From Chthoniobacterales bacterium (GTDB lineage: Bacteria; Verrucomicrobiota; Verrucomicrobiia; Chthoniobacterales; JACTMZ01), in NCBI GenBank assembly GCA_041736875.1, contig JBGSSV010000194.1, positions 1,993 through 65,992 of the forward strand: a stretch of 64,000 nucleotides of DNA, given 5' to 3'. Under the pieces are notes generated by a model. The model was given only the letters and a program-made list of their open reading frames with translations, was not told the DNA's origin and made no database searches. Shown one piece after another: positions 30,273-57,312 of this stretch (position 1 is its first letter; each line of letters begins with the position of its first letter). The position numbers were made by a program, and so were the translations under genes.

Positions 30273-32312
30273 TCAAAGGCTCGGGCTCACACCGGCGGAG
30301 AACCTGAGGCGCGGGGCGGCCGCGCCGGAGTGGCGCGAATACACCCGAAGCGGATGCCAGCCTGCCGCGAGGCGGAGCCTCCCGCGATGCTCGCCGGCCG
30401 CACCGTGCAGAGGCTCGGTGATCACGCGAATGTCGTGGAGAAACAGCGTTGCGCCGGTGTCGCTCGCGAGGATGAATTCGTAGTCACCCTCTTCCGCAGC
30501 ATGAAAGTATCCGTTGAAGGCAACCCCGAAGGGGACGACGGTTGGAACTTCGGGCAGCAAGAGGGCGGAGGACTTGCCTTCGGCCACAGGCCGCAAAGTG
30601 CGGAAATCGGGCACCCATGGCAATTCACCTTGGAAGAAGGACCAGGCAAACTCGTTGGCCTCATCCGGCTTCGCCGCGAGGGAGGGCACCGGCGTCTGAT
30701 CGTAGGGTCGAGGCGCGGAAGCGTCGGGAATTCTCACCTGGAGCACGCGGGCCTTCATGGCCGCCTGCACCTCGGGGAGACCACCGTCTTGCGCAAGATT
30801 CTCGGCCTCCTGCGGGTCTGCGGAGAGATCGTAAATCTCGAAGTCGTCGTCTGCTGACCTCACGTCATAACGGATGCCTTTGTAACCATCGTGGTGGATG
30901 ACCTGCATCTGCCCGCGCTTGCGGCCCTGGCGGGCGGGCAGGAAATCCGGGATGTGCGGGGTTCTACCCGCGTGGAAATACTCGACGTAAACGAGGCCGG
31001 GCAGCCTCTGACCGCTGCCGCTCAAAGTGGGCACGAGGGAGACGCCGTCGGAGGCTGACGGCGCGGTCAGACCGGCCAGTTCGGCAAAGGTGGTCAGCCA
31101 ATCCCACTGGCCGGAGGCTTGGGCATCGGTGCGGCCGGCGGGAATGCCGGCGGGCCAGCGCGCGAGGGTGGGCACGCGGATGCCGCCCTCCCAAGTGTCG
31201 CGTTTGATGCCGTCGAAGGGGCCGAAGCTTTGAAAAAAACCCGGGGCGTGCGGCTCCGAGAGGTAGGACTCATCGGAAGGACCGTTGTCGGAGGTGAAAA
31301 TAACCAGCGTGTTGTCATCGATCCCGAGGTCCTTGAGCAGGTGAAGAAGGTCACCCACGCCGTCGTCGATGCGCCGAATGCTGTTGGCGTGGCGTTTCTC
31401 GACGTCCGGCCACGGGACTTCCGGCGTGGCCGGGTCGCGGTCGTGGTCCCACGTGGCATCGGCCAAGTCGGGATGCATCCATGCGTCTTTTTGGCCGGTC
31501 GCGGTGTTGAGCATCGCGTGGGGCCGGCCAGTCCACTGCATGCCGCCGTCGCGTCCGCCGCCGTCAGGATATGCGCAAGGGGGATTCTGCAACTTGGCGT
31601 GGGGAGTGTCGTAGGCGAGGTAGAGAAAGAAGGGCTGGGCGGGATGCGCGGCCGTGTGCTCCACGATCCATTGCTTGGTCCGCGCCGTGAAAAGATCTGT
31701 TGTGTAGCAGAGGTCGAGATCCGCTGAGATTTCGCGCTCGTTTTCCCAAACCTCACGACCGTCCTCCTTCGGGTAATGGTAGTGGCCATCTCGATGACGC
31801 ACGTAGCCAAAGAAAAAATCGAAACCACGGCAGGTCGGATAACCGGCCCAGACGGCAGGCGTGCCGGCGGGATTTTTCTCATCGCCGCCCTGCAAACCCC
31901 ATTTGCCCACGGCGGCAGTGGCGTAGCCGGCTTGGCGGAGCACGGTCGCAAGGGTGTGGGTATCGGCGAGGGCCTTGTCGAAATGGTTGTCGCGCACACT
32001 GGCATGACCTTGGGTGAGACCGGTCAGCAGCGAGGCGCGGGCCGGGGCGCACACCGAGGCGGCGGCGTAGTGCTGGGTCATCTTGAGCCCGTCGCGCGCC
32101 AAGGTATCAAGGTGCGGAGTGGCAAAGGAGGGCTGAGTGCGATCCTGCCGCGCGGCCCGCTGATTTTGCACAAACACACCCACATCCCCGTAGCCGAGAT
32201 CATCGCAGAGAATGTAAAGGATATTGGGCCGGGGCGCCGAGGCTGGCGGCTCGCCGGGGAGAGGTGTGGTGGTCAAGGCAGTCATGATGGATAAACCGCG
32301 GATAAGTCTCAC
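30273..32312 (-). CDS. Cys-type (formylglycine) arylsulfatase with C-terminal PA14-like domain
   Basis: PNILYILCDDLGYGDVG and SVCAPARASLLTG (CxPxR) are the sulfatase signatures. The C-terminus FNGYFHAAEEGDYEFILASDTGATLFLHDIRV...LAAGWHPLRVY fits the PA14 pattern. No hydrophobic signal peptide is visible at either candidate start. Confidence 0.88.
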   Translation of the reverse strand: MRLIRGLSIMTALTTTPLPGEPPASAPRPNILYILCDDLGYGDVGVFVQNQRAARQDRTQPSFATPHLDTLARDGLKMTQHYAAASVCAPARASLLTGLTQGHASVRDNHFDKALADTHTLATVLRQAGYATAAVGKWGLQGGDEKNPAGTPAVWAGYPTCRGFDFFFGYVRHRDGHYHYPKEDGREVWENEREISADLDLCYTTDLFTARTKQWIVEHTAAHPAQPFFLYLAYDTPHAKLQNPPCAYPDGGGRDGGMQWTGRPHAMLNTATGQKDAWMHPDLADATWDHDRDPATPEVPWPDVEKRHANSIRRIDDGVGDLLHLLKDLGIDDNTLVIFTSDNGPSDESYLSEPHAPGFFQSFGPFDGIKRDTWEGGIRVPTLARWPAGIPAGRTDAQASGQWDWLTTFAELAGLTAPSASDGVSLVPTLSGSGQRLPGLVYVEYFHAGRTPHIPDFLPARQGRKRGQMQVIHHDGYKGIRYDVRSADDDFEIYDLSADPQEAENLAQDGGLPEVQAAMKARVLQVRIPDASAPRPYDQTPVPSLAAKPDEANEFAWSFFQGELPWVPDFRTLRPVAEGKSSALLLPEVPTVVPFGVAFNGYFHAAEEGDYEFILASDTGATLFLHDIRVITEPLHGAAGEHRGRLRLAAGWHPLRVYSRHSGAAAPRLRFSAGVSPSL

Positions 32313-32317
32313 GTTGC

Positions 32318-34633
32318 TTACGGCGCCGGCTCAAGCGCAGAGCCCACGTAGGCTTGGAAAGACTTGATGCGGCCCGCCGCCTCCTCGGCGGTTCCTTGAC
32401 GGGGCACATAAATGAAGCCACTGAGTTGCTCTTCGCGCCCCAGATCGATGACGATCCAGTGCGGGTGGGAGGATTTGGATCCACTGAGCCAATGGTTGGA
32501 GATCTGGCCGTCGATGGCGTTGCCCGCGCCCGAGGCCTCGGCGGCCGTCTCCTCGCTGCTCACGCTGACGATGGTCCAGAGTTGGGAGCTGAGAGGGTGG
32601 CCGTCGGGGCCCAGAAGCGTGAGGTCGCCGATGGAGGCGCGCTGTCCTCCGTCATGGGCGTCGAGGGCCTCGAGTGCAAAGTAGCGGCCCCGCAGCGGGT
32701 GGTCGAAAGCGATCCGCTGGGACTCTCCGCCGCTCGGGAAGAGCCCGCGATGTGCGGCCTCGCCTTCGAGGCGAAGGCGCTTGAGTTCGGACTTCTGACC
32801 GAGGAGGTCGAGTTCCGGGCGGAGCGCGTCGAGGATCGGTTTTTCGAGTCCGGCCAGTTCTGCGTCGGCGTCACCGACGTAGTCGAGCACGATGAATTCA
32901 TTACAGCCGGGCTTGAGCCAAGGTGCGGGGACAAACATCGTCTGTTGGGGCCCGATGTTCCAATAGTAGCCGAGGTTGCGGCCGTTGACCCAGACCATGC
33001 CTTTGCCCCAGGGCCGCATGTCGAGGAAGGTGTCGCCGACTTCCTTGAGATCAACCTCAAAGCGGTGGAATCCGGGGCGCAAGCACTCGAAGGGCGTGTC
33101 GGATGCTGGAGCGACCGCAGCAGGTTGGAAGCGGAGCCTGTTCAAGTGGCCGCTGTCGAGCGGAAGGGAAAACATCTCCCAGTCGCGGAGTTCCTCATCA
33201 CCCACGCGCACCGGGCCGTGCAGACCCTTGCGGTCATGGACCTCGACGCCGAAGTTGACCCGGCCCATGGCCTCGACAAGCACTTCGAGCACGGCGGGTT
33301 TTTCGCGGGCGGGAAGCTCGGCGAGGAAGACGCGGTTGCGGCGGTCGAAGGTGGCCACGCGCACACCATCGAGAAAAAGCTGGCCGATGTCGTGCACGCC
33401 AGCGGCATGGAAGACGGCCTCGGGTCCGGCAGGCAGCATAGTGCGGTAGAGCACGGCACCATGGGCTTGATCGAGTTTTTCCAGGTTGAGCGGCTGCTCG
33501 GAGCGGACGGAGTCGGGCAAATCCGCAAGCAGCGGCGCGAACCCGGTGGATCGGGTCGGAGGAAACGATATGACCGGCGGCGCGGCGGGCGGCTCTGGGA
33601 TGGACTCGCCGGGCTGGAGATAACGGGCGAAGAGGTCACGGGTCTGGAAAAACTTGTCCGTGGTCCAACCGGCCTCGCTAATCGGCGCATCGTAGTCGTA
33701 GGAGGACGTGTCGGGCTTGAACGGGCGATCCGCGCCCGTGCTGAAACCGAAGGACGTGCCCCCATGCGCCATATAGATGCTGAACGAAGCGTTCATCTTC
33801 AGCATGGTCTCAAGGTCGCGGAGGTAGCGCTCAACCTTGCCCCGGTGATGGGGCTGCCCCCACGTATCGAACCAACCGGGATAGAACTCGCCGCACATGA
33901 GCGGCCCCTTCGGGAGAATCTCGCGCAGCTTCTTGAAGGCGCCCTCGGGATCGGAGCCGAAGTTGACCACCGGAAACAGGTCTTTGCGGTAGCCGTTGCG
34001 CAGATGCCAGACAGGATTGCAGGCAAAGAGCGGAACATCGAAACCGGCATCGACAAGGGCTCGGCGGATCTCGCCCATGTATTCGGCGTCCTTGCCAAAA
34101 AAACCATATTCGTTTTCCGCCTGCACCATCAGGATCGGACCCCCGCGCGTCACCTGCAGGGGCGCGAGCTGGCGTCCGACCTCTGTGAAATAGTTCCGCA
34201 CGGCGGCGAGGAAGCGTGGATCGCGAGTGCGCAACTGAATGTCGTCGTGCTTGAGCAACCACCACGGCAGTCCGCCCATCTCCCACTCGGCACAGGCGTA
34301 TGGGCCGGGACGCAACACGATCCAAAGACCCTCGGCCTGGGCCAGTCGGCAGAACTCGGCGATGCCGGCGCTTCCGGACCAATCAAACTGACCCTCGCGA
34401 GGCTCGATCTGGTTCCAGAAAAGATATGCACACACCGCATTCAAGCCCATGGCCTTGGCCATCTGCAGCCGATGTTTCCAGTATTCGCGCGGCACGCGGG
34501 CCGAATGGATTTCGCCGATGCGCATTACGAACGGTTGGCCGTTGAGCAAGAAGGCGTCCGGGCCGAGCTCAAACGTGTTGGTGGCGGCGGACAGGTTCAT
34601 GGAGAGGAGGAGGCTGAGCAGGATGGACCGCAT
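32318..34633 (-). CDS. secreted beta-galactosidase, GH35, with C-terminal discoidin-like domain
   Basis: ATG at 34633 gives MRSILLSLLLSMNLSAA. FLLNGQPFVMRIGEIHSARVPREYWKHRLQMAKAMGLNAVCAYLFWNQIEPREGQFDW is the classic GH35 N-terminus, and QAENEYG is also present. The tail reads NAIDGQISNHWLSG...HWIVIDLG. Confidence 0.9.
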   Translation of the reverse strand: MRSILLSLLLSMNLSAATNTFELGPDAFLLNGQPFVMRIGEIHSARVPREYWKHRLQMAKAMGLNAVCAYLFWNQIEPREGQFDWSGSAGIAEFCRLAQAEGLWIVLRPGPYACAEWEMGGLPWWLLKHDDIQLRTRDPRFLAAVRNYFTEVGRQLAPLQVTRGGPILMVQAENEYGFFGKDAEYMGEIRRALVDAGFDVPLFACNPVWHLRNGYRKDLFPVVNFGSDPEGAFKKLREILPKGPLMCGEFYPGWFDTWGQPHHRGKVERYLRDLETMLKMNASFSIYMAHGGTSFGFSTGADRPFKPDTSSYDYDAPISEAGWTTDKFFQTRDLFARYLQPGESIPEPPAAPPVISFPPTRSTGFAPLLADLPDSVRSEQPLNLEKLDQAHGAVLYRTMLPAGPEAVFHAAGVHDIGQLFLDGVRVATFDRRNRVFLAELPAREKPAVLEVLVEAMGRVNFGVEVHDRKGLHGPVRVGDEELRDWEMFSLPLDSGHLNRLRFQPAAVAPASDTPFECLRPGFHRFEVDLKEVGDTFLDMRPWGKGMVWVNGRNLGYYWNIGPQQTMFVPAPWLKPGCNEFIVLDYVGDADAELAGLEKPILDALRPELDLLGQKSELKRLRLEGEAAHRGLFPSGGESQRIAFDHPLRGRYFALEALDAHDGGQRASIGDLTLLGPDGHPLSSQLWTIVSVSSEETAAEASGAGNAIDGQISNHWLSGSKSSHPHWIVIDLGREEQLSGFIYVPRQGTAEEAAGRIKSFQAYVGSALEPAP

Positions 34634-34634
34634 A

Positions 34635-35756
34635 TCATGGCGCTGGAGTTTGAGTCGTCCCGGCCGACGCCTTGGGGGGGAGCACGCGTGGAGAAAACAC
34701 GGGGGCATCGAGGAAGCTCGTCTCGCCGGTGTTGGCGTCAATCGTCCAAGGGCGGGGTTCGGGCAGCCAGAGTTTGCCGCCGCCGATCTCGAGAGGCATC
34801 CAGAGATAGCGACTGTCGTCCAGGGCGGGCGGCCACCACATGTCGCCCATGTAGATGACGGATGTTTTTTTCGAACCCACGACCTTGAGGATGTAAGAGG
34901 ACTGGGAGCCGTAGGTCTTCTTCCCGGGCGGCGCGATGTCCTTGAATTCCGACCATGGGCCGGCGAGCGAGGTGGCCGTGGCGTATTGGTTGTTGTTGGG
35001 CGTCCACCCGCTCATGAACGACGCGATGAGGTAATAGAGGCCGTCGTGTTTCACGAGCGAGCCACCCTCGAGGGGAGATTTGATGAAACAAACCTCGCGC
35101 ACGACATCCAGGTAGTCGTCGGAAAGGGCGGCGATGAAGAAGCCCTGTGTCGGGCGCGACTCGAAGATGAGGTAAGGCGTGCCATCATCGTCGATGAACT
35201 GGCCGATGTCGCGGCTCTCCTGCCCGAGTGGACGGAAGCTGCGAATGTAGGTGTAGTCGCCGTCGATGGTGTCGGAGACGGCAACACCGACGCGGGCGAG
35301 GCTGTAGGCGCTCCCTTTGTCCGTGCCATCCCGCGTGCCGTCGATGTGCATATACATGACGTATTTTCCGGTCTTCGGGTTGTGGAAGACTTTGGGCCGC
35401 TCGAGAACCCAGCGGGGGCCGAGCTTCTCGGGGTCGGCGGACTTGAAAACCTGGCGGCGGAATTCCCAATTGATGAGATCTTTTGAGCTATAGCAGGAGA
35501 CGAAGCGCCAGCCCGGGGTATTGTCCGCCGCGCGATCCTCACCGAACCAGTAATAGGTATCGCCTTTCTTAAGGATGCCGCTGCCGTGCGCTTGAATGTG
35601 GCGTCCGCGGTCGTCGGGCCAGATTTCGCCCGGCATGATATGGGTGCGCGGCGAGGACGTGGCGTGAGCCGAGGTGGCAAGGAGAGCTGACATGAGAATG
35701 GTGAGGGGCACTTTGATAACAACGGTCGTCAAAGATCGGGAGGCGGTAAGGTGCAA
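34635..35756 (-). CDS. secreted GH43 hydrolase, exo-beta-1,3-galactanase-like (GH43_24-like)
   Basis: HIQAHGSGILKKGDTYYWFGEDR and GKYVMYMHID resemble the QAHGGG/YYWFGE blocks of GH43 exo-1,3-galactanases. The N-terminus is hydrophobic (LTILMSALLATSAHA). The stop is 1 nt from the GH35 start. Confidence 0.75.
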   Translation of the reverse strand: MHLTASRSLTTVVIKVPLTILMSALLATSAHATSSPRTHIMPGEIWPDDRGRHIQAHGSGILKKGDTYYWFGEDRAADNTPGWRFVSCYSSKDLINWEFRRQVFKSADPEKLGPRWVLERPKVFHNPKTGKYVMYMHIDGTRDGTDKGSAYSLARVGVAVSDTIDGDYTYIRSFRPLGQESRDIGQFIDDDGTPYLIFESRPTQGFFIAALSDDYLDVVREVCFIKSPLEGGSLVKHDGLYYLIASFMSGWTPNNNQYATATSLAGPWSEFKDIAPPGKKTYGSQSSYILKVVGSKKTSVIYMGDMWWPPALDDSRYLWMPLEIGGGKLWLPEPRPWTIDANTGETSFLDAPVFSPRVLPPKASAGTTQTPAP

Positions 35757-35770: not shown

Positions 35771-37120
35771 TTAGGGCCGCGCCGATTCCGACTTGGAGGC
35801 GGATCCTTCGCCGCTTGACTCCAAAACCTGGAACGGCAGCACGCTGGCAGAAGTGCCACCTTTGTTGTCATTGGCATAGACCATGACGAGATATTCGCCC
35901 GGAGTTTCGGGTGCGTTGACGACGGCGTTCTCGCCGGAGGCATGCTTGAAGGGGCCGGCGATGTTGGTGACCTTGCGGGCCTTGGACCGCAGGATCCATG
36001 TGACAAACTCGACCATGTCGCCATTCGAGTCGTCCGCGGCGAAGTTCATGGACAGGGCTTCACCTGGCGCAGCGGCTCTTGATTTCGCGCCGCCTGCGAA
36101 CTCCAGCTTGGAGAGCACCGGCGCGCGGTTGCCGACCATGGTCTGGCCGGTGAAATGTTCGGTCATCGCATCGGCTTGCGGAGTCCGCAGCAAACCGTCG
36201 AACGACTCACCTTCCTTCGGACCTTCCGGATCGGGGGAGAGAAGCGTGCTGAAGTAAGTCGGCCGGTCGTCTGTCGCGTAGTGCCCCCAGACGAAGATCG
36301 TCGAACCCAAGCAGAGCGGTGATTCATCGATCGCGACATAGCAATCCTTGAGGTCGCTCACCTTGCGGGTCACGGGCTCGTCCAGCGGCACGTCCCACTC
36401 GGTTTTGTTGAAGTTCCATGGCCCGTTGGCGTTGAACTCCGACACGTAGAAGGGTTTGCCCCAGTGTTGCTCGGCGTTCTTGATCCCACCTCGGACCGCG
36501 CCCCGGCTGTAGGCTTGGATCCCCAAGACATCGAGATCGGGCGCAAATTTCTTGATCTTTTCGATGTGCTCGGGCTTCGCGTTGATCATGGTCAGGCTGG
36601 TGAGGTGGTGGGGAAAACGTTTGTGAATCTCCTCCGACATCCGGTTGACCACGCGCAGGTAGGGTTCGTCGAGGTGGACTTCGTTGCCCAGGCCCCACAT
36701 GAGGAGGGCCGGATGGTCGCCGATCCCTTCGATCTTCTTGATCAGGTTCTCCACCGTCAGATCACCCTTCGCGTTGTAGTCGAAATCCCACAGGTGCCCC
36801 TCCTTGCTTTTGTTCTCGCCGTGGTGCGGCATCCACTCGCTGACGATCATCTTCATGCCGAGGCGTTCGGCATGATCGAGTTTCTTCTTCATGACCTCGG
36901 GTTCTTCGATAGTGTAGCCGCGCACGGTGTTGACCCCGAGCGTGGCCAGGCGGCCCAGATCACGATCGCCGCACACGCCCTTGATCTGGAAGTTTTCGAA
37001 GCGTTCGAAACGGTCGCGGTCGGTTGCGGACATGCCTTCGGGGATGGTGAAGGGCCGGGCAGGCGCGGAGGAGGCGAGGAGGAACAAGCCAAGCGAGGCG
37101 ATGCGGATGGTGGTTTTCAT
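35771..37120 (-). CDS. secreted clan GH-A (beta/alpha)8 glycoside hydrolase, family unresolved, with C-terminal Ig-like domain (paralog A)
   Basis: Signal peptide MKTTIRIASLGLFLLASSAPA. FQIKGVCGD...GVNTVRGYTI, LLMWGLGNEVH (NE acid/base) and PFYVSEFN (nucleophile Glu) are present. The tail NRAPVLSKLEF...EYLVMVYANDNKGG is Ig-like. Confidence 0.7.
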   Translation of the reverse strand: MKTTIRIASLGLFLLASSAPARPFTIPEGMSATDRDRFERFENFQIKGVCGDRDLGRLATLGVNTVRGYTIEEPEVMKKKLDHAERLGMKMIVSEWMPHHGENKSKEGHLWDFDYNAKGDLTVENLIKKIEGIGDHPALLMWGLGNEVHLDEPYLRVVNRMSEEIHKRFPHHLTSLTMINAKPEHIEKIKKFAPDLDVLGIQAYSRGAVRGGIKNAEQHWGKPFYVSEFNANGPWNFNKTEWDVPLDEPVTRKVSDLKDCYVAIDESPLCLGSTIFVWGHYATDDRPTYFSTLLSPDPEGPKEGESFDGLLRTPQADAMTEHFTGQTMVGNRAPVLSKLEFAGGAKSRAAAPGEALSMNFAADDSNGDMVEFVTWILRSKARKVTNIAGPFKHASGENAVVNAPETPGEYLVMVYANDNKGGTSASVLPFQVLESSGEGSASKSESARP

Positions 37121-42597: not shown

Positions 42598-42668
42598 AAA
42601 CACTTTGGCTAATCCGGAAAATCCGTGCAGTTTGAGGTTGGTGATGGGGTTGCCAAAGGAGGGGCGAC

Positions 42669-51641: not shown

Positions 51642-53162
51642 TCAGATTCCAGCCCGCAAGCGCTCGAGCTCCCTGCGGTTATTCTCCGCCTTTTCCCTCG
51701 TGAGGGGATAGAACTTGAGAAGGACGAAACACAGGATGGCCGGACCGGCAGCGCCCAGGCACATGGCCAGGCGCATGTTAAGGTAGGTTTCCGGGCTCTG
51801 CGATGACGCACCGGGATCGAAGCCGATGGCGTTGAGGAAAACGCCGATCATGACGAAGCTGATGGCAAACGAGGCTTTCATGAACCAGCCGTAGATCGCC
51901 CCGAACATGCCTTCTCGCCGACAGCCATTCTTGATCTCGTCATCGTCACACACGTCGGCAATCAGCGACTGGCCAAGAACACCCACGCCGATCCAGAACA
52001 GGCCGCCAGTCAAAGGATCGAGCCAAATGAGCGACTGAAAGACCGCGACGAGCGAACCGCCCACAGCCTCCAGACTCGACCAGCTCAGCGCGGTGTCGAA
52101 GCGACCGGGGCGATAGACAAACCAGCGGATGGCCGCGTTGAGGATCATCATGCCGTAGATGAACATGAAGCCGCGGATCTTGGTCATTTTCCCGGTCAAC
52201 CAGACGATCAAGGGGATGCCGAGAACGCCGACCAAAGCATAGCCGACGGTCACAATCAGCTTCCACTGCGTTCCCACCGCTACGTCGCCATTCGAGAGGT
52301 AGTAGATCAGAAGATACCAGTCCATGTTGCTGGCAAACATGCCGGCAATGATGGTGAAGACGGCGATGGCACAGAGAATCGCGAACGCCCGGTTTTGCAG
52401 GCACATCCGGACGGATGACCAGAAACGATCCCTCTTCCCGTGGTGTTCCTTGATGTTGATTTCATAGTTGCGCTCTCTGCCGAAGAAGGCGGGGAGCATG
52501 CCGAAGAGCGTCATGCCGATTCCGCCGTAAACGGCTGCGGACATGCGGATGCCTTCCATTTTCTCCGCCGTGGTCAGGTCGCCGGATTCGGCGTAGCCGT
52601 ATTTCCAGGCGATGAACATCAACGAGAAGGGAATCAGGCCCATGTAGGTCATCTCGCCCAAGCGGTTCCAGAATGTGACGTAGCCCTGCACGATGGTGCG
52701 CTCGTCGTAGTCCGGCGTCATCTCGTAGGTCAGGGCGATGAAGGGCACCGAGAAGATCGTGTAGGCGGTATAGAACAGAATGCTGGTCGTAAGGAACCAA
52801 GCCAGCTTTCCGGCATCGCTCCACTCCATCGGGATCATCCAGATTGATGCAAAGGTCAGGCCCATGAGAATGGCGCCGCAGAAAATGAACGGTCGACGGC
52901 GACCGAAGCGCGATCTGAAGTTGTCCGAGATATTCCCCATGATGGGGTCGGTGATGGCATCCCACAGGAGCGGGATGGCCAGCACGATGCCCACCCAGAA
53001 GGCATTGATGCCCAGAATCATGTTCAGCACCGCCTGTCCGGTCGTGCGAACGCTTTGGTTGCCCAGTGAGACGGTGAATCCCCCAGTGCCTACCGACAAC
53101 TTCTCGGCGATGCTCAGTTTCCCGCTGTTTGGCGCCGGTGGCTGATGTGGGCTATTGTCCAT
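51642..53162 (-). CDS. glycoside-pentoside-hexuronide (GPH):cation symporter, MFS
   Basis: ATG at 53162 gives MDNSPHQPPAPNSGKLSIAEK. DAITDPIMGNISDNFRSRFGRRRPFI is the GPH signature, and about 12 hydrophobic segments follow. Confidence 0.85.
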   Translation of the reverse strand: MDNSPHQPPAPNSGKLSIAEKLSVGTGGFTVSLGNQSVRTTGQAVLNMILGINAFWVGIVLAIPLLWDAITDPIMGNISDNFRSRFGRRRPFIFCGAILMGLTFASIWMIPMEWSDAGKLAWFLTTSILFYTAYTIFSVPFIALTYEMTPDYDERTIVQGYVTFWNRLGEMTYMGLIPFSLMFIAWKYGYAESGDLTTAEKMEGIRMSAAVYGGIGMTLFGMLPAFFGRERNYEINIKEHHGKRDRFWSSVRMCLQNRAFAILCAIAVFTIIAGMFASNMDWYLLIYYLSNGDVAVGTQWKLIVTVGYALVGVLGIPLIVWLTGKMTKIRGFMFIYGMMILNAAIRWFVYRPGRFDTALSWSSLEAVGGSLVAVFQSLIWLDPLTGGLFWIGVGVLGQSLIADVCDDDEIKNGCRREGMFGAIYGWFMKASFAISFVMIGVFLNAIGFDPGASSQSPETYLNMRLAMCLGAAGPAILCFVLLKFYPLTREKAENNRRELERLRAGI

Positions 53163-56100
53163 AAAGATTTCTTCCGCAGGCCGCCATGGCGCGGACCAGT
53201 TCGGCGTTGGGGCCGTCCGCGACATCATAGAGGCCGACGTCGAAATTCTCGCCATCGTAACGACCGGCGGCGCTCTGGTCACGCCACTGGAACCAGTGGG
53301 CGCCGACAAGTTTGGGATTTTTCACGGCTTCAGCGATGAATTCCTTGAGCAACCGCCCCTGCTGCACCGCATCTTGCGCGCTGCGCAAGCCGCCGCCGAG
53401 GTTGTTGCCCGAGACGTCGGCGAAATGGAATTCCGAGATGAGGACGGGCTTGTCGGTTGCGCCATACTGTTTGAGCTCGGGATGATAGGAGTAAATGTTG
53501 GCGCTGATCACATCGGCATGCCGGGCCAGCGCGGCGATGACCTCGGATGGACCGGAGTTCATCCGGCAACCGAGATATAGCACGTTGGGCGAGTAGGCGG
53601 TGAGTTCTTCCCGGACCATGCTGAACATGGTGTCGGCAAACAATGTGGCCAAGGCCGAGCAATCGGCGGCATCGGCCTCCGAAAACAAATCGGGGTCGGT
53701 TGTTTTCAACAGATCATCCCAACTCCCCAGCGTCGTCTTCCACGCTCGGTTCAGCGCCGCGATGTCGCCGTGCTTTTTCTTGAGCCATCCGATGAAAACC
53801 TTCCGCGCCTTCGAACCGGTGGTGCTGTGACCGAAGATGGCGCCGACCAGAAGCCGGGCGTCGTTCTTCCAATGCAGCTCGTTGTCCACGAACGCGCCGA
53901 GGCACCAGGGGTCGTTGGCAAACTTGACGGGATAACCTGCCAACGCCTTGCGCAAACTGAGGCGGGTTTCCGGGTTGAACGGGTCGGGCAGTTTAGGAGC
54001 AGCCTCGGGATACACGTAATGTAGCATGGCCACATAGGGCACTTCCCGGCGCTCGATGATGGCGTTGTCCGACCACGCACCGATGGTGTTGAGGTGGGTG
54101 TATTTGAGACGCTCGACATCCTGGTCGACCTGCTGCTTTTCCCAGCCCTCGCCGTATTTTCGCCATAGGTTGGCCCTCGTGAAATCGAAATGGGGCACGT
54201 CGGGCCGGGCAAGAAAGTTTTCCTCCACCTCGAGCTTCGTGTGGAAGCGCCCGAATACCGGGTCGTCCGCCGCAGGCAGATCTTGGAAGACCGCCTGATC
54301 CCGCTCGGTGGGCGTCTGGCCGGCGAAGTCAATGCCGATGCAGTTGGCGCCAAACGACCAGAAAAGCCGCCCCTCCGGATCCACAAACCACCATTTACCT
54401 TTCACCTTCTCCGAGCGGAAAAAGCCGGTCGCCTTGAGCTGGGGACCGGCCTGCCAGCCGCCATACTTATTGAGGTCGCGGGCCGGTCCGATTTCCCGGA
54501 CCAGCGCGTCTTCGACCTTTGCTTTCGCTTTGATGTCGTCATCGGAGAGGACCTTCCCCGGCCAGGTGCGGTGGAGGTATTGACCGTAACGATCAAGGAT
54601 CGGGAGGACATCGGCCAGGCTCTCATCCGTTTCTTGCAGTGGAGCCATGGGGCCGAGTTCGAACGCATGCTCCTCGGGAGTGGAGCAGGTGATGACAAGA
54701 TCCCTCACATCCGCCGGATCGAAGGTGTGCCAGTGGCGGAAGTAACCGTTCGGCCGACCGGACATGCGGAGGTAAGCCGGATGCTTCGCGCGATAGTCGG
54801 CCGTGCGTTGGAAGGCCACGCCCAGCGGCAGCGTCTCCCCAGATTTGATCACGGTGCGGCCAAGGGCGGACTTCGAAAACGTGGTCGCGCCGTCGTTGCG
54901 AGCCATCACGTCCAGAACAAGCTCCGTTGGTCCCGTGTTTTTCACTATCAGGCCGAGCACGCGGATATTCTGCATGTTCCAGGCCTCGCCGTGGGCCGGC
55001 TCCAGCACGAGGCGAAACGGACCTTGGCCGCGGATCTCCTGAACTTCCTTGCCTGGGGAGACTTTCACTCCCTCGCTTTTTTCAATGCGGTAGGGAATCG
55101 ACTCTGAGCCCGGGGCGCCAACTTCACCGCGCCAGAGCTTCTCGAGCGATTCCAGCAGGGTGGACGACTTGTCCGTTCCGAGCTCATACATGCGCTCGGA
55201 CATCGCGCGCGAGGCGCGGGTGATTTCCGGATACGGCGTGTCGGTCACATCCACGAAGCCTATCTGGTAGTTCTCCCCCGAGCTTCCTCCGGGTGACACC
55301 GGGCGGGCGGCGGCCGATTGGTCGGGGAAGGCGAACCAGTGCGTGCCGACGATATTCGGGTGCTTGAGGCCCGACAGCACGTAGGCCACGTAGGCACGAC
55401 TGCGCTGGATCTGGTCGCCGACCGGCCACAACCCCACGCCGGGCACCCCTCGGTCCGGAGCCCCGAAGTGGAATTCGGTTTCCATGCAGGGCATGTCGCC
55501 TGCCTTGGAAACCTTGGAGCCGGAGAGTGGTTCGTAGCTGTTGCCGCTGAGGACATCCACATACTTGGCCGATTCTTCGTAAACTTCTTGGTCGGCCTTG
55601 TGCTTGCGGGACCCGAGGTAGAGGTGGTTCGGCAAGGCCTCGCGCATGGCTTCGCGACAAAGCCGGTAGTAGGTGCCAGAGATGAGGCGCTTCAGGTCCG
55701 AGAGGTCGGCTTTGAAACCCTCGGTCTCGTTTTCGGCATCCGGCAGCGCCCCGATCGCTTGCCACGAGTCATAGGATGTTCCCCACGCGCTGTTGAGTTT
55801 TTTGATCGTCCCGTGCTTGTTTTTGAGCCATTCCACGGAAGCGATTCGTGCGGGCTGTTCGGGGCCGCGGAGGAAGGCATTCTGCACGAAGGGTTCGTTC
55901 CAATAGATCTCGTTGTCGATGAAGACGCCGAGAACCCACGGGTTGTCCTTGTCCGGAACGATCCGGCGCAGTCCCTCGACCACGCCGGCTTTGAAGTCCT
56001 TGGCGAACGGATCGACCACCTTGTTGCCGAGGGGCGAACCTTTGCCACCCAGATGGAGAATGGGGGTGAACGGCGTGCGTTGGTCCGCCATCAGCCCGGC

Positions 56101-57312
56101 ATCCGACCACGCACCGATGGTGTTCATGCCCCACTGACGAAGCCTGCGATGGACGCGGTCGCGCGCCGGCTCCTGCCACGAGGGACCGAAGGTGCGGGCA
56201 AGGTTCGCAACCATGAATTGCATCTGGTTGTTCTTGATGGCCCCGCCGAAGAGCGGATCACCCTCCGCGGGCAGCCAGGCGAAGAGGGATTCGCGGCCCG
56301 GGATCGGCGTGACCTGTTCGAAGCCGATGCTGTTTGCACCGTGCGAGAAGAAGAGCCGCCCCTCGGGATCGATCAGCCACCATTTGCCGTCCACCTTCTC
56401 CACGCGGAAGAACCCGGTGGCCTGCAACTGCGGACCGTTAGCCCATCCTCCGAAACGATTGAACGAGCGGGGACCTTGGTCATTTCTGGCTGCGGCCAAC
56501 TCGGCCTCGTGCCGCTGCTTCAGTTCGCCTTCGTCATGCAGTTTCCCCGGCCAGTCCACTTTGCGGACCTGGCCGAACTCGTCAAGGTAGGGCAACTCCA
56601 ACCGGTCCGCATTCGCCTCGGCACCGTAAGGGTAGGCGAGGCTGATCACGAAGTCGTCCAGCGCCAAGGTGGAGGACGTGGACTGGATGACCAACCGGCA
56701 GGCGATGACCTTCGAGGGATCGAACGGTTTCCAGTGGTCCCGGTGGCCGTTGGGCTTGCCGCTTTGCTGGTTGAAGATCGGCGGCGTATCGTTCAGGTCC
56801 TTCGCGCGCTGGAAGGGAAAACCCAGCGTGGCCCGCTCGCCCGGCATGACGAACGCCTGCGACGGAGCGCTGTTGGCCCAGTCGAGCGCGCCCTTGTTGT
56901 CCAAACGGCCACGAATCCAGACCAAGCCCGGGCCGTTGTTGACGAAATCAATGCGGACAAAGCTGTAAGCTGAAACATCCCAGGAGCCCGAGGTCGGCGA
57001 CAGGATGACGTTCGCCCCCTGCTTCGGCATCTCGCCGGACAGCCGGAACGAGTCCTTGTCGCCCGGAGCGAAGCTCAAACCATCCGGACCTTTGCCCGTG
57101 ACATCCGTCAAGGCGCGCACCGGCGCGAGAAGATCCTCGATGGGTGTGGCGGAGGCTTGGCCGGATACCGCACCCGCAGCTCCCTCCCCGCTCGCCTCCT
57201 TCGGAGTGACCGCTTGGGAGGCAAGGACGAAACAAAAGCAACAGCCAAGAACAACGAGGAAGATGACGGCGGAAATGCGGAAGACAGACAGACGGAGGAA
57301 CGGATAGAACAT
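53152..57312 (-). CDS. membrane-anchored or secreted tandem double glycosidase: two complete beta-sandwich + GH-A (GH50/GH42-like) modules in one ~1386-aa chain
   Basis: ATG at 57312 gives MFYPFLRLSVFRISAVIFLVVLGCCFCFVLASQA; the tracked TTG at 57351 is an alternative. Module 1 has [37 protein letters not shown] and METEFHFGAPDRG. Module 2 has [50 protein letters not shown] and GAHWFQWRDQSAAGRYDGENFDVGLY. Confidence 0.8.
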   Translation of the reverse strand: MFYPFLRLSVFRISAVIFLVVLGCCFCFVLASQAVTPKEASGEGAAGAVSGQASATPIEDLLAPVRALTDVTGKGPDGLSFAPGDKDSFRLSGEMPKQGANVILSPTSGSWDVSAYSFVRIDFVNNGPGLVWIRGRLDNKGALDWANSAPSQAFVMPGERATLGFPFQRAKDLNDTPPIFNQQSGKPNGHRDHWKPFDPSKVIACRLVIQSTSSTLALDDFVISLAYPYGAEANADRLELPYLDEFGQVRKVDWPGKLHDEGELKQRHEAELAAARNDQGPRSFNRFGGWANGPQLQATGFFRVEKVDGKWWLIDPEGRLFFSHGANSIGFEQVTPIPGRESLFAWLPAEGDPLFGGAIKNNQMQFMVANLARTFGPSWQEPARDRVHRRLRQWGMNTIGAWSDAGLMADQRTPFTPILHLGGKGSPLGNKVVDPFAKDFKAGVVEGLRRIVPDKDNPWVLGVFIDNEIYWNEPFVQNAFLRGPEQPARIASVEWLKNKHGTIKKLNSAWGTSYDSWQAIGALPDAENETEGFKADLSDLKRLISGTYYRLCREAMREALPNHLYLGSRKHKADQEVYEESAKYVDVLSGNSYEPLSGSKVSKAGDMPCMETEFHFGAPDRGVPGVGLWPVGDQIQRSRAYVAYVLSGLKHPNIVGTHWFAFPDQSAAARPVSPGGSSGENYQIGFVDVTDTPYPEITRASRAMSERMYELGTDKSSTLLESLEKLWRGEVGAPGSESIPYRIEKSEGVKVSPGKEVQEIRGQGPFRLVLEPAHGEAWNMQNIRVLGLIVKNTGPTELVLDVMARNDGATTFSKSALGRTVIKSGETLPLGVAFQRTADYRAKHPAYLRMSGRPNGYFRHWHTFDPADVRDLVITCSTPEEHAFELGPMAPLQETDESLADVLPILDRYGQYLHRTWPGKVLSDDDIKAKAKVEDALVREIGPARDLNKYGGWQAGPQLKATGFFRSEKVKGKWWFVDPEGRLFWSFGANCIGIDFAGQTPTERDQAVFQDLPAADDPVFGRFHTKLEVEENFLARPDVPHFDFTRANLWRKYGEGWEKQQVDQDVERLKYTHLNTIGAWSDNAIIERREVPYVAMLHYVYPEAAPKLPDPFNPETRLSLRKALAGYPVKFANDPWCLGAFVDNELHWKNDARLLVGAIFGHSTTGSKARKVFIGWLKKKHGDIAALNRAWKTTLGSWDDLLKTTDPDLFSEADAADCSALATLFADTMFSMVREELTAYSPNVLYLGCRMNSGPSEVIAALARHADVISANIYSYHPELKQYGATDKPVLISEFHFADVSGNNLGGGLRSAQDAVQQGRLLKEFIAEAVKNPKLVGAHWFQWRDQSAAGRYDGENFDVGLYDVADGPNAELVRAMAACGRNLYGQ

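What the first reader, a model, noticed from the sequence alone, without database searches (positions are those of the whole stretch)
30273..57312. 27-kb uninterrupted single-strand array of 15 genes: a SusCD-less polysaccharide utilisation super-operon
Every gene from 57312 down to 30273 is on the minus strand. Junctions include overlaps of 8-17 nt (53152/53162, 50452/50459, 46210/46226) and a 1-nt gap (34633/34635). The largest gaps are 102, 71 and 59 nt.

The contents are a double GH50/42-like enzyme, a GPH symporter, a cytoplasmic GH43, GH112, galT, galE and a single GH50/42-like enzyme. These are followed by a binding protein, two unclassified GH-A paralogs, GH31, GH29, a secreted GH43, GH35 and a PA14-sulfatase.

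The mix of beta-1,3-galactan-type enzymes, fucosidases and sulfatases fits a sulfated fucosylated galactan, either algal or invertebrate. Mucin-type O-glycan (Gal-beta-1,3-GalNAc cores) is an alternative. No regulator or outer-membrane transporter lies inside the array.
Basis: partly seen in the sequence, partly recalled or inferred. Interest (0 to 1): 0.6.

Follow-up and report, generated by a model that had tools for sequence, protein, structure and literature searches.

The report
Verrucomicrobial sulfated-galactan utilisation gene array
A real 27-kb one-strand run of sugar-degrading genes in a verrucomicrobium, built around a four-gene cassette (GH50, sugar symporter, cytoplasmic galactosidase, GH112 phosphorylase) that recurs across PVC bacteria, that I did not find described, and whose substrate is unknown but is probably a sulfated, fucosylated galactan.

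Summary
Every gene from 57312 down to 30273 is on the minus strand, and the stated overlaps and gaps are correct.

Family calls are right or can be sharpened:
- The "GH50/42-like" proteins are GH50, with catalytic Glu residues conserved.
- Both GH43s are exo-beta-1,3-galactanase type.
- The two "GH-A paralogs" are GH158-like.
- The PA14-sulfatase is S1_20, the Gal-3-sulfate type.

Caveats:
- GH31 is broken by a 2-nt insertion.
- The binding protein is the orphan remnant of an ABC importer that is intact in a close relative.
- The host is a verrucomicrobium, so the absence of SusCD is expected.
- The system extends past both ends of the stated interval.

The new point is a cassette: GH50, GPH symporter, GH42 or GH43_24, and GH112, usually with a sulfatase nearby. 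It is present in every informative locus from Verrucomicrobiota, Kiritimatiellae, Victivallales and Planctomycetota. Literature searches found no description of it.

Best model: periplasmic desulfation and trimming of a sulfated fucosylated galactan, symporter uptake, then cytoplasmic hydrolysis plus phosphorolysis to Gal-1-P for GalT/GalE. The substrate and the single-transcript claim remain unproven.

The parts
53152..57312 (-). a01: secreted or anchored protein with two GH50 modules (N module about residues 59-714, C module about 738-1384)
   Evidence: PDB phmmer to Aga50D 4bq2 gives E 3e-73 with two matched stretches. The NE...E catalytic pair is invariant in both modules. The N-terminus is hydrophobic. 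Orthologs are 74-79% identical in L002, L017 and L018.
51642..53162 (-). a02: GPH-family glycoside:cation symporter, with its start overlapping the a01 stop by 11 nt
   Evidence: Pfam MFS_2 E 1.5e-65. NCBIfam TIGR00792 gph. Found next to GH50 in all related loci with enough flank.
50452..51582 (-). a03: cytoplasmic GH43 of the exo-beta-1,3-galactanase type (GH43_24-like), no signal peptide
   Evidence: PDB 6eug E 7e-115, 3vsf E 4e-60, 7bys 'Galactan 1,3-beta-galactosidase' E 7e-42. No GH117 hits. N-terminus shown.
48273..50459 (-). a04: GH112 beta-galactoside phosphorylase (cytoplasmic)
   Evidence: Pfam Lact_bio_phlase with LBP_M and LBP_C, E 4e-164. PDB 2zus E 2e-162 with catalytic Asp313 aligned. 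It sits in a tight PVC clade of 67-89% identity.
47207..48247 (-). a05: galactose-1-phosphate uridylyltransferase (GalT)
   Evidence: Pfam PF01087 and PF02744, E about 1e-70.
46210..47187 (-). a06: UDP-glucose 4-epimerase (GalE)
   Evidence: Pfam Epimerase E 4e-57.
44133..46226 (-). a07: secreted single-module GH50
   Evidence: PDB 4bq2 E 7e-76. Catalytic pair conserved. Orthologs lie downstream of GH112 in L002, L018 and L030.
44031..44116 (-). Relic of the 3' end of an ABC permease gene (deletion scar) within the 102-nt gap
   Evidence: blastn aligns window 44116-42700 to L018 15930-17346. That stretch starts 86 nt inside the second permease gene of L018.
42669..44030 (-). a08: orphan ABC solute-binding protein (SBP_bac_1); permeases and ATPase are missing
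   Evidence: Pfam SBP_bac_1 E 4e-38. The L018 ortholog (76%) sits between two BPD_transp_1 permeases and a MalK-type ATPase.
41251..42672 (-). a09: secreted GH158-like clan GH-A enzyme (paralog of a12, 65% identical); the likely start is 42597
   Evidence: No Pfam hit. Paralogy shown. GH158 assignment follows a12.
38998..41225 (-). a10: GH31 gene disrupted by a 2-nt (GC) insertion at about 40781-40784; probably a pseudogene
   Evidence: Two overlapping ORFs. Pfam GH31 catalytic domains hit the 3' ORF. The frame change is at ...VSTKGF|AVLFDTARY. Removing 2 nt gives a 741-aa ORF. The L030 ortholog has the predicted junction but its own in-frame TAA.
37156..38985 (-). a11: secreted GH29 alpha-L-fucosidase with a C-terminal F5/8 type C domain
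   Evidence: Pfam Alpha_L_fucos E 2e-71 and F5_F8_type_C.
35771..37120 (-). a12: secreted GH158-like enzyme
   Evidence: PDB 9oro 'Glycoside hydrolase family 158' E 2e-31 and 6pal E 3e-27. There are 248 homologs, mostly unnamed or called hypothetical, where named from Verrucomicrobiota. It recurs next to GH43, GH128, SASA and sulfatase genes in L020, L021, L030 and L031.
34635..35756 (-). a13: GH43 exo-beta-1,3-galactanase type, probably secreted (start uncertain: TTG at 35756 or ATG at 35636)
   Evidence: PDB 7bys E 9e-71, 3vsf E 8e-58, 5flw 'exo-beta-1,3-galactanase' E 4e-50. The alternative gene call is 333 aa.
32318..34633 (-). a14: secreted GH35 beta-galactosidase with an F5/8 type C domain
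   Evidence: Pfam Glyco_hydro_35 E 1e-106 plus BetaGal domains.
30273..32312 (-). a15: S1_20-type sulfatase with a C-terminal PA14 domain; CxPxR motif present; no obvious signal peptide
   Evidence: PDB 9s8a E 9e-154 and 9s8x E 1e-150. By architecture these correspond to the Akkermansia S1_20 Gal-3-sulfatases Amuc0451 and Amuc0953 (PMC13524802). Pfam Sulfatase and PA14. N-terminus.
57358..57381 (-). Conserved 24-nt element TGTTTGATATTTGTCTGACATTAT upstream of a01, in the divergent intergenic region
   Evidence: Conserved in the alignment of window, L018, L017 and L002 upstream regions. It is unique in the window with 0 expected by chance. Near-copies occur in L002 and L018. Its role as promoter or operator is inferred.
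57475..60495 (+). h1: divergently oriented double sulfatase; the N half is S1_15 (exo Gal/GalNAc-6-sulfatase type)
   Evidence: Pfam Sulfatase with 2 stretches. N half against PDB: 7ozc E 2e-159 and 9bas 'S1_15A' E 4e-156. S1_15 function is described in PMC12549532. Orthologs lie next to, or fused to, the GH50 genes in L002, L015/L016, L017 and L019.
60507..62285 (+). h2 and h3: two GH128 enzymes with twin-arginine-like signal peptides (60507-61346 and 61440-62285)
   Evidence: Pfam Glyco_hydro_cc E 1e-44 and 2e-46. PDB 6uaq E 1e-40. The same arrangement is seen in L017.
24864..30086 (+). g13: 1740-aa surface protein with F5/8, ricin, a GH128-like catalytic core, He_PIG and cadherin repeats, convergent with the array end
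   Evidence: Pfam. Orthologs lie next to the cassette or GH158 genes in L014 (34%), L015, L030 (60%) and L031 (69%).
20270..21397 (-). g10: LacI-family regulator, the nearest regulator, about 9 kb beyond the array end
   Evidence: Pfam LacI and Peripla_BP_3. No link to the array was tested.

Best explanation
The array is a glycan-utilisation gene cluster of a verrucomicrobium. It is the central part of a CAZyme island that fills the whole 64-kb window, and it most likely handles a sulfated, fucosylated and probably O-acetylated galactan containing beta-1,3-linked galactose.

Proposed mechanism (family assignments are shown; activities, order and substrate are inferred):
1. Surface or periplasmic enzymes open the polymer. 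These are the giant GH128-lectin protein, the two small GH128s and the two GH158-like enzymes.
2. Exo-sulfatases remove Gal-6-sulfate (S1_15) and terminal Gal-3-sulfate (S1_20).
3. GH29 and GH95-like fucosidases, SASA-type esterases, GH35 and a secreted GH43_24 strip side groups and trim chain ends.
4. The three GH50 modules, homologous to exo-acting biose-releasing beta-agarases, release short beta-galactosides.
5. The GPH symporter imports these oligosaccharides.
6. In the cytoplasm, GH43_24 (replaced by GH42 in many relatives) removes beta-1,3-linked Gal.
7. GH112 phosphorolyses the remaining beta-galactoside to Gal-1-P. GalT and GalE feed it into central metabolism without spending ATP on galactokinase.

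The core is GH50, GPH, GH42 or GH43_24, and GH112, with an adjacent sulfatase. It is an ancient mobile cassette shared across PVC phyla. The rest of the 27-kb array is lineage-specific accretion, and in this strain it is partly decayed: the ABC importer is lost and GH31 is frameshifted. Co-transcription from a promoter near 57358-57381 is plausible but unproven.
For: - **Family assignments:**
- **GH50 is catalytically plausible:** the NE and E catalytic residues are invariant in all three modules when aligned with an annotated agarase.
- **Compartment logic:** a03-a06 have no signal peptide, whereas a01, a07-a14 and h1-h3 have hydrophobic or twin-arginine N-termini.
- **Cassette conservation:** every locus carrying a PVC-clade GH112 with enough flank has GPH, GH50 and either GH42 or GH43_24. 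These loci come from Terrimicrobiaceae, Pontiella and other Kiritimatiellae, Victivallales, Puniceicoccaceae and Thermoguttaceae. In L012 the four genes stand alone among housekeeping genes.
- **Sulfatase link:** the S1_15 sulfatase is fused to the double GH50 in L015/L016 as a 1845-aa protein. This ties desulfation to GH50 action.
- **Distinct clades:** the GH112 clade (67% or more, then a drop to 54% or less) and the GH50 C-module clade (51% or more, then 45% or less) are both discrete.
- **Beta-1,3-Gal linkage:** GH42 and GH43_24 alternate at the same cassette position, which points to a beta-1,3-Gal bond (inference). The GH158-like genes recur with GH43, GH128, SASA and sulfatase genes in L020, L021, L030 and L031.
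- **Sulfatase functions:** S1_20 and S1_15 functions come from PMC13524802 and PMC12549532.
- **Operon-like features:** tight junctions with three overlaps, and a single conserved upstream element.
Against: - No enzyme here has been assayed.
- GH50 is known only as beta-agarase. GH128 and GH158 are known only as beta-1,3-glucanases. GH112 is known only for Gal-beta1,3-HexNAc and Gal-beta1,4-L-Rha (PMC8950772). The model therefore needs new specificities in several families.
- A phosphorylase and a hydrolase acting on the same linkage looks redundant unless the imported sugar has DP 3 or more.
- No endo-beta-1,3-galactanase of a known family (GH16) and no galactokinase lie in the window.
- a15 lacks a signal peptide, so its compartment is unclear.
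- The nearest-relative arrays differ in content, so the 15 genes need not serve one substrate.
- The promoter and terminator scans are uninformative for this phylum.
- The habitat of the source organism is unknown.
Confidence: 0.55

Rival explanations
1. Host or animal O-glycan foraging (mucin-type, type-1 chains). Sulfatases uncap 3S- and 6S-Gal, fucosidases remove Lewis or H fucose, GH35 and GH50 release Gal or lacto-N-biose/galacto-N-biose, and GH112 acts as a classical GNB/LNB phosphorylase as in the bifidobacterial lnp pathway.
For: - a15 matches Akkermansia Amuc0451 (S1_20 with PA14; 3'S-LacNAc/LNB sulfatase) at E 9e-154.
- The h1 N half matches mucin and chondroitin S1_15 enzymes, including those of Akkermansia.
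- GH112, GalT and GalE occur in the same order as lnpA, lnpC and lnpD.
- GH29, GH95-like, GH35, SASA and F5/8 domains are typical of mucin degraders.
Against: - None of the roughly 33 ORFs scanned is GH20, GH84, GH89, GH33, GH101, GH129 or GH136. There is no S1_11 sulfatase, NahK or HexNAc catabolic gene.
- Two GH43_24-type enzymes, three GH50 modules, three GH128 domains and two GH158-like enzymes have no known role on mucin.
- Cassette-bearing relatives are MAGs from sediment and other environmental metagenomes, plus a marine sediment isolate.
- S1_15 also acts on algal galactan.
Confidence: 0.13
2. Red-algal galactan (agar, porphyran or carrageenan-like) utilisation. The GH50 modules are genuine exo-beta-agarases releasing neo-series bioses after desulfation, and GH29 acts as an alpha-L-galactosidase.
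For: - The only characterised GH50 activity is beta-agarase, and the match to Aga50D is E 1e-73 to 1e-76.
- A cycle of exo-sulfatase plus exo-GH is the known logic for carrageenans (PMC12549532).
- In Pontiella the cassette lies next to aldehyde dehydrogenase, MR/MLE, Zn-ADH and SDR genes. From my own knowledge this resembles anhydro-galactose or L-sugar acid pathways.
Against: - The window has no GH117, GH86, GH16 or GH96 gene and no anhydrogalactose pathway. a03 is GH43_24-type, not GH117.
- Neo-series bioses carry the alpha-linked sugar at the non-reducing end, so they are not substrates for GH112, GH42 or GH43_24.
- Pontiella desulfatans F1 carries the cassette but does not grow on agar (PMC7356697).
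- Among the chains matched in the PDB searches, the L-Gal-6-sulfatase 7lha scores only E 1e-19 to the h1 N half (and 1e-16 to a15).
- GH50 homologs also occur in non-agarolytic bacteria such as P. aeruginosa.
Confidence: 0.12
3. The array is not one system. It is a co-oriented accumulation of several independent modules for different glycans (for example beta-1,3-glucan through GH128 and GH158, galactan through GH50 and GH112, fucosides through GH29), each with its own promoter. Under this reading "super-operon" is an artefact of gene orientation.
For: - Module content differs among close relatives. L017 stops after GH112, L002 lacks galT and galE, L018 has a full ABC system, and L030 has SASA x2 and tandem GH158 genes.
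- GH128 and GH158 are known only as beta-1,3-glucanases.
- Gaps of 59-102 nt, and possibly 134 nt, could hold promoters.
- Decay of GH31 and the ABC genes shows uneven selection along the array.
Against: - The same families recur together in distant genomes: GH50, GH112, S1_15, GH128, GH158-like, GH43, GH29, SASA and the giant GH128-lectin protein.
- No beta-glucosidase family is present.
- Pontiella with the cassette and a GH128 giant protein does not grow on laminarin.
- Most junctions are 35 nt or less, or overlap.
Confidence: 0.2

Closest known systems
Bifidobacterial GNB/LNB pathway (lnpABCD: GH112 GLNBP, NahK, GalT, GalE, with an ABC importer)
   Same: A GH112 phosphorylase is followed directly by GalT and GalE. 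Cytoplasmic phosphorolysis of an imported beta-galactoside yields Gal-1-P. A solute-binding protein is nearby.
   Different: - There is no NahK and no HexNAc metabolism.
- Uptake is by a GPH symporter, and the ABC system is degenerate.
- The GH112 belongs to a separate PVC clade. It is 38-39% identical to two plasmid-borne homologs, one annotated gnpA, and has a 6-residue insertion after the PYFF motif relative to B. longum.
- The partners are GH50, GH43_24 and sulfatases rather than GH20 or GH136 lacto-N-biosidases.
GH50 exo-beta-agarase systems (e.g. Saccharophagus Aga50D with GH117)
   Same: GH50 membership holds for three modules, with the N-terminal accessory domain and the catalytic Glu pair conserved. 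The inferred logic is also shared: a secreted exo-enzyme feeds small sugars to a cytoplasmic finishing step.
   Different: - GH117, GH86, GH16 and the anhydrogalactose pathway are absent.
- The cytoplasmic partners act on non-reducing beta-Gal.
- The cassette occurs in non-agarolytic Pontiella.
- The cassette GH50s form their own clade, only 35-38% identical to the rest of the family.
Bacteroides arabinogalactan-protein PULs with GH43_24 exo-beta-1,3-galactanases (own knowledge: Cartmell et al. 2018)
   Same: There are two GH43_24-type enzymes, with best PDB matches to Bacteroides and Clostridium beta-1,3-galactan enzymes, and a GH35.
   Different: - No SusCD pair.
- No arabinofuranosidase, glucuronidase or rhamnosidase families.
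- Sulfatases, fucosidases, GH50 and GH112 are present.
- One GH43_24 is cytoplasmic.
Exo-sulfatase plus exo-glycosidase cascades for carrageenans in Pseudoalteromonas (PMC12549532), and Akkermansia mucin sulfatases (PMC13524802)
   Same: S1_15 (Gal-6S) and S1_20 (Gal-3S) exo-sulfatases sit beside exo-glycosidases. The fusion of S1_15 to GH50 in L015 implies the same rule of desulfating first and cleaving second.
   Different: The glycosidase families differ, with no GH150, GH110, GH167 or GH16. There is a phosphorolytic end step, and the host phylum is different.
Verrucomicrobial fucoidan and sulfated methyl-pentose degradation loci (own knowledge: Lentimonas, bloom-associated Verrucomicrobiota)
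   Same: A PVC host, many sulfatases with GH29 and GH95, large co-directional clusters and no SusCD.
   Different: The core here is galactose-directed (GH50, GH43_24, GH35, GH112, GalT, GalE). No GH107, GH141 or GH168 domain or fucose-catabolic microcompartment gene was seen among the ORFs scanned.

Membership tests
Bacteroidota-type PUL | Adjacent SusC-like TonB-dependent transporter and SusD-like lipoprotein | tested here: not met
   Pfam scans of about 33 ORFs across the window gave no Plug, TonB_dep_Rec or SusD hits. Relatives are Verrucomicrobiota/PVC.
Operon (single transcription unit) | Same strand with short or overlapping junctions | tested here: met
   All 15 genes are on the minus strand. 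There are three overlaps, and most gaps are 35 nt or less.
Operon (single transcription unit) | One promoter, no internal terminators, one transcript | not testable with these tools
   Consensus scans were at or below the shuffle expectation. One conserved upstream element occurs only at 57358-57381. No transcript data are available.
GH50 | Significant sequence similarity to GH50 catalytic domains, with conserved clan GH-A acid/base (NE) and nucleophile Glu | tested here: met
   E 3e-73 and 7e-76 to Aga50D. N526/E527 and E687 (Catenovulum numbering) are invariant in a01N, a01C and a07.
GH50 | Beta-agarase activity | not testable with these tools
   Indirect evidence argues against it. No agarolytic partner genes are present, and Pontiella with the cassette does not grow on agar.
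GH112 | Three-domain Lact_bio_phlase architecture with a conserved catalytic Asp | tested here: met
   Pfam PF09508, PF17385 and PF17386. Asp313 of B. longum GLNBP is aligned and conserved. TIGR02336 scores 803 bits against a cut-off of 560.
GNB/LNB pathway (lnpABCD) | N-acetylhexosamine 1-kinase (NahK) alongside GH112, GalT and GalE | tested here: not met
   No kinase lies in the array or window. GH112, GalT and GalE are contiguous.
GNB/LNB pathway (lnpABCD) | Acceptor specificity for GlcNAc/GalNAc | not testable with these tools
   Residues R358, Y362 and F364 (assignment from memory) are conserved, but a 6-residue insertion follows them. The primary structure papers could not be read.
GH43 subfamily 24 (exo-beta-1,3-galactanase) | Closest similarity to characterised exo-beta-1,3-galactanases rather than other GH43 subfamilies or GH117 | tested here: met
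   a13: 7bys E 9e-71, 3vsf, 5flw. a03: 6eug E 7e-115, 3vsf E 4e-60. Xylanase and arabinofuranosidase GH43s score E 1e-7 or worse, and there are no GH117 hits. No formal dbCAN subfamily call was run.
GH158 | Sequence similarity to GH158 structures | tested here: met
   9oro E 2e-31 and 6pal E 3e-27 over nearly the full length.
GH158 | Beta-1,3-glucanase activity | not testable with these tools
   The context (GH43_24, sulfatases, no beta-glucosidase) suggests a different substrate, but this is inference.
Sulfatase S1_20 | Best similarity to S1_20 Gal-3-sulfatases, FGly motif, PA14 appendage as in Amuc0451 | tested here: met
   9s8a E 9e-154 across residues 28-667. The CAPAR motif is present. 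Pfam PA14 hit. No SulfAtlas HMM was run.
Sulfatase S1_15 | Best similarity to S1_15 Gal/GalNAc-6-sulfatases | tested here: met
   The h1 N half scores 7ozc E 2e-159, 9bas S1_15A E 4e-156 and 6s20 E 1e-149. The next chain below the S1_15 block (arylsulfatase A) scores 1e-53.
ABC sugar importer | SBP together with two permeases and an ATPase | tested here: not met
   Only the SBP remains. The permeases and ATPase present in L018 are deleted, leaving an 86-nt relic.

The most novel reading that the evidence does not exclude
The cassette of GH50, GPH symporter, GH42 or GH43_24, and GH112, with an S1_15 sulfatase alongside, defines a previously unrecognised phosphorolytic route for a widespread sulfated galactan, shared by horizontal transfer among Verrucomicrobiota, Kiritimatiellota, Lentisphaerota and Planctomycetota.

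Under this reading the GH50s are not agarases but biose-releasing exo-beta-galactanases. The GH112 has a new acceptor specificity, for example beta-1,3-galactobiose or another non-HexNAc, non-rhamnose galactoside. The co-occurring GH158-like and GH128 enzymes are endo-beta-1,3-galactanases rather than glucanases. That would amount to new activities in up to four CAZy families.
Probability: 0.3. Interest if true: 0.7.

Novelty: new variant of a known kind. Interest (0 to 1): 0.5.

Why it matters
PVC bacteria are major degraders of sulfated polysaccharides in sediments, soils and waters, yet most of their CAZyme clusters have no assigned substrate. This locus offers a compact, recurrent and therefore testable cassette.

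The cassette links three families with very narrow known activity ranges (GH50, GH112, GH43_24) to defined exo-sulfatases (S1_15, S1_20). It is also present in a cultured organism, Pontiella desulfatans F1.

If the inferred activities hold, the result would be:
- the first non-agarase function in GH50;
- a third specificity in GH112;
- an energy-saving phosphorolytic end step for galactan catabolism.

If they do not hold, the array is one more well-annotated verrucomicrobial polysaccharide locus.

Tried and rejected
1. **a03 as GH117.** I considered that the cytoplasmic "GH43" might be a GH117 neoagarobiose hydrolase, which would make an agar pathway. This is rejected. The PDB hits are all exo-beta-1,3-galactanase-type GH43, and none is GH117.
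2. **PF11790 proteins as GH168 fucanases.** Not supported. They match GH128 structures at E 1e-40.
3. **GH112 acceptor subsite.** I tried to read the subsite residues from the primary papers (JBC 2009 structure and GalRhaP papers). They are not held and the reviews give no residues. The 6-residue insertion after PYFF is shared by all 120 top homologs, so it does not mark the GH50-linked clade.
4. **Shared regulatory motif.** The conserved element upstream of a01 is unique in the window and restricted to close relatives.
5. **Promoter, terminator and RNA scans.** Sigma-70 promoter and terminator scans were uninformative. Rfam gave no hits.
6. **Repeats.** The repeat search found only the paralogous genes.
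7. **Literature.** Searches for GH50 with GH112, GH50 with GH43_24, and GH112 with sulfatase and Verrucomicrobia found no description of the cassette. The library is limited to open-access papers.
8. **NCBIfam.** It added no subfamily information for GH31, GH29 or the SBP.
9. **Plasmid collection.** It holds no copy of the cassette.

Full report
**1. Observation**

The ORF table and translations show an unbroken minus-strand series from 57312 to 30273.
- overlaps of 11, 8 and 17 nt at 53152/53162, 50452/50459 and 46210/46226;
- a 1-nt gap at 34633/34635;
- largest gaps of 102, 71 and 59 nt.

GC content (0.59-0.64) does not set the array apart from its flanks. Consensus scans found no sigma-70-like promoters. 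Terminator-like hairpins were at or below the shuffle expectation. The only minus-strand hairpin at a gene end is at 30276..30261, the 3' end of the array. Rfam found nothing. Repeats reflect only paralogous genes.

**2. What the genes are**

| Gene | Assignment | Evidence |
|---|---|---|
| a01, a07 | GH50: two modules in a01, one in a07 | E 3e-73 and 7e-76 to Aga50D. NE acid/base and nucleophile Glu invariant when aligned with an annotated Catenovulum agarase |
| a02 | GPH symporter | Pfam MFS_2 |
| a03 | GH43 of the exo-beta-1,3-galactanase type, no signal peptide | 6eug E 7e-115, 3vsf, 7bys |
| a04 | GH112 | 2zus E 2e-162 |
| a05, a06 | GalT and GalE | Pfam |
| a08 | SBP_bac_1 binding protein | Pfam |
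| a09, a12 | GH158-like, 65% identical to each other, no Pfam domain | 2e-31 and 3e-27 |
| a10 | GH31 | Pfam |
| a11 | GH29 with an F5/8 domain | Pfam |
| a13 | second exo-beta-1,3-galactanase-type GH43 | 7bys E 9e-71 |
| a14 | GH35 with an F5/8 domain | Pfam |
| a15 | S1_20 sulfatase with PA14 | 9s8a E 9e-154 |

The structure 9s8a matched by a15 is one of the Akkermansia sulfatase structures deposited with PMC13524802. By length and architecture it corresponds to the S1_20-with-PA14 Gal-3-sulfatase Amuc0451.

**3.

*GH31 is split.* Frame 0 reads ...PLYVSTKGF and the sequence continues in another frame as AVLFDTARYLKV.... Deleting a GC dinucleotide at about 40781-40784 restores a 741-aa ORF with a signal peptide. 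The ortholog in L030 has exactly the predicted junction sequence, but it carries its own in-frame TAA about 60 codons further on. GH31 therefore seems to be decaying independently in two lineages.

*The binding protein is an orphan.* A relative at about 80-90% amino-acid identity (L018) has the same order a01-a07. This is followed by two permeases, the SBP ortholog (76%), a MalK-type ATPase and GH158. blastn shows the window lacks exactly those 2.3-kb and 1.4-kb segments. It retains 86 nt of the permease 3' end inside the 102-nt gap.

**4. Host and boundaries**

The nearest GH112 homologs (76-89%) are in MAGs labelled Terrimicrobiaceae, Verrucomicrobiota, Pontiella and other Kiritimatiellae, Puniceicoccaceae, Victivallales and Thermoguttaceae. 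Terrimicrobiaceae belongs to Verrucomicrobiota in the PVC group. The absence of SusCD is therefore expected rather than special.

The whole window is a CAZyme island:
- two further GH29 genes, a GH95-like protein, a beta-helix protein and a SASA esterase;
- two PATR giant proteins with an N-methyl prepilin-like gene;
- a LacI regulator (20270-21397);
- a 1740-aa protein with F5/8, ricin, a GH128-like core and He_PIG repeats (24864-30086);
- divergent from a01, a double sulfatase whose N half is S1_15 (E 2e-159), followed by two GH128 genes (6uaq E 1e-40).

**5. The conserved core**

Synteny analysis covered every locus with a PVC-clade GH112 and enough flank. In all of them GH112 is accompanied by a GPH symporter, a GH50 orthologous to the a01 C module (50-82% identical) and a cytoplasmic galactosidase. 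In most of these loci the galactosidase is a conserved GH42. In the window, L002, L010, L014, L017 and L018 it is a GH43_24-type enzyme.

Further observations on the core:
- A sulfatase is usually adjacent.
- In L015/L016 the S1_15 domain is fused to the double GH50 as an 1845-aa protein.
- In the Thermoguttaceae genome (L012) the four genes stand alone among housekeeping genes.
- The GH112 clade is sharply bounded (67% or more, then 54% or less). So is the GH50 C-module clade (51% or more, then 45% or less).
- A Puniceicoccales genome keeps the orthologous GH42 and S1_15 with a GH112 from another clade.
- A GH112 at 53% identity sits in a pectin/galactan context. The wider family therefore serves several substrates.

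**6. The accessory part**

The GH158-like family has 248 detected homologs. Most are unnamed or called hypothetical, and the named ones are from Verrucomicrobiota. It recurs with GH43, GH128, SASA esterases, sulfatases and the giant GH128-lectin protein in L020, L021, L030 and L031.

L030 repeats much of the window's order: GH112, galT, galE, GH50, SASA x2, GH158 x2, an intervening unannotated gene, then GH31 and GH29, with the giant protein opposite. It differs in detail. L017 ends after GH112, and L002 lacks galT and galE. The 27-kb array is thus a mosaic around a stable core, not a conserved 15-gene unit.

**7. Mechanism**

*Shown:* family memberships, conserved catalytic residues in GH50, the pattern of signal peptides, and the gene associations.

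*Inferred:*
- periplasmic or surface endo-cleavage by GH128 and GH158-like enzymes;
- exo-desulfation of Gal-6S (S1_15; function from PMC12549532) and of terminal Gal-3S (S1_20; PMC13524802);
- removal of fucose, acetyl groups and side-chain Gal;
- release of small beta-galactosides by GH50, and uptake by the symporter;
- cytoplasmic removal of beta-1,3-Gal by GH43_24 or GH42;
- phosphorolysis by GH112 to Gal-1-P, which GalT and GalE process.

GH42 and GH43_24 interchange at one cassette position. This is the main argument for a beta-1,3-Gal linkage in the imported sugar. In a 3-linked galactan only the terminal residue can carry a 3-sulfate, which fits an exo S1_20 enzyme.

Pontiella desulfatans F1 carries the cassette. 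It grows on fucoidans, including Undaria galactofucan, and on kappa-carrageenan and chondroitin sulfate. It does not grow on agar, laminarin or pectin (PMC7356697). This argues against the textbook activities of GH50, GH128 and GH158 in this context.

**8. Rivals**

- *Mucin-type glycans.* The sulfatase matches and the GH112 annotation favour this reading. No HexNAc-active enzyme, sialidase or NahK is present.
- *Red-algal galactans.* The GH50 family history favours this reading. No GH117, GH86 or GH16 gene or anhydrogalactose pathway is present, and neo-series products would not fit the cytoplasmic enzymes.
- *A heterogeneous multi-substrate cluster.* This remains possible given the mosaicism.

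**9. Novelty**

Known GH112 activities are Gal-beta1,3-HexNAc and Gal-beta1,4-L-Rha phosphorylases (PMC8950772). GH158 is known for beta-1,3-glucans. Searches for GH50 with GH112, GH50 with GH43_24, and GH112 with sulfatase and Verrucomicrobia returned no description of the cassette. These searches cover only the open-access library.

I classify the locus as a new variant of a known kind, namely a PVC polysaccharide-utilisation cluster. The cassette is a good enzyme-discovery lead rather than a new principle.

**10. Verdict**

- The operon claim is untested.
- The substrate is unresolved but constrained.
- Interest is moderate (0.5).

Noticed in passing
window 40781-40784 (within 38998-41225, minus strand); L030:14495-16720: GH31 is split by a 2-nt GC insertion. 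The ortholog in a Methylacidiphilales-labelled MAG is intact at that site but has an in-frame TAA about 60 codons downstream. These are two independent lesions in the same gene. A Logan contig from SRR28170466 ends about 16 nt from the insertion site, which might reflect a polymorphism.
   Followed up: partly
window 44031-44116 and 42598-42700: Deletion scars: two ABC permease genes and the ATPase present in relative L018 are missing. An 86-nt relic of the permease 3' end remains upstream of the orphan binding-protein gene.
   Followed up: yes
L015:932-6469 and L016:3-5390: A single 1795-1845-aa protein fuses an S1_15-type sulfatase to two GH50 modules. This is a Rosetta-stone link between desulfation and GH50 action.
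   Followed up: partly
L014:14588-20420 (Pontiella desulfatans, GCA_900890425.1): Downstream of the cassette, after an oppositely oriented GH50 gene, lie aldehyde dehydrogenase, MR/MLE enolase-superfamily, Zn-ADH and SDR genes plus an AraC-type regulator with a periplasmic-binding domain. This could be a non-phosphorylative L-sugar (fucose, rhamnose or L-galactose) pathway or an anhydrogalactose pathway. It is not seen in the other loci.
   Followed up: no
window 57358-57381 (minus strand): The 24-nt element TGTTTGATATTTGTCTGACATTAT contains a TGATAT/TGACAT direct repeat 11 nt apart. It is conserved upstream of the double GH50 gene in close relatives and is unique in the window. It does not fit a sigma-70 spacing.
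   Followed up: partly
window 8260-20134 (minus strand): A cluster of two PATR-repeat giant proteins (1146 and 1366 aa), an fn3/Calx-beta/GDSL protein, an N-methyl prepilin-like protein and a LamG-like protein. PATR proteins also flank related loci (L012, L017, L020, L031). They may be surface or adhesion machinery for glycan capture.
   Followed up: no
window 30273-32312 (a15): The S1_20-PA14 sulfatase has no recognisable signal peptide, and its start lies 5 nt after the GH35 stop. It may act in the cytoplasm on imported sulfated oligosaccharides, or it may be exported by another route.
   Followed up: no
window 60507-61346 and 61440-62285: The two small GH128 proteins begin with RRKFL-type twin-arginine motifs, suggesting Tat export of folded enzymes.
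   Followed up: no
L026:5335-7608 (P. aeruginosa record NZ_CP131792.1 in the plasmid collection): A GH50 homolog annotated beta-agarase (36% identical to a07) sits between dinG and an esterase gene in a non-agarolytic species. This is another hint that GH50 has non-agar functions.
   Followed up: no
L022 (Puniceicoccales bacterium CK1056, GCA_010500615.1): This locus keeps the orthologous GH42 (79%) and S1_15 (68%), together with a GPH and a GH50. Its GH112 is only 52% identical, so the GH112 partner can be exchanged between clades.
   Followed up: partly
window 21505-22884 (+) and 62337-63503 (-): Two long ORFs (459 and 388 aa) have no Pfam match. The second has a 43%-identical stretch in L020. 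They may be real unknown genes or high-GC artefacts.
   Followed up: no
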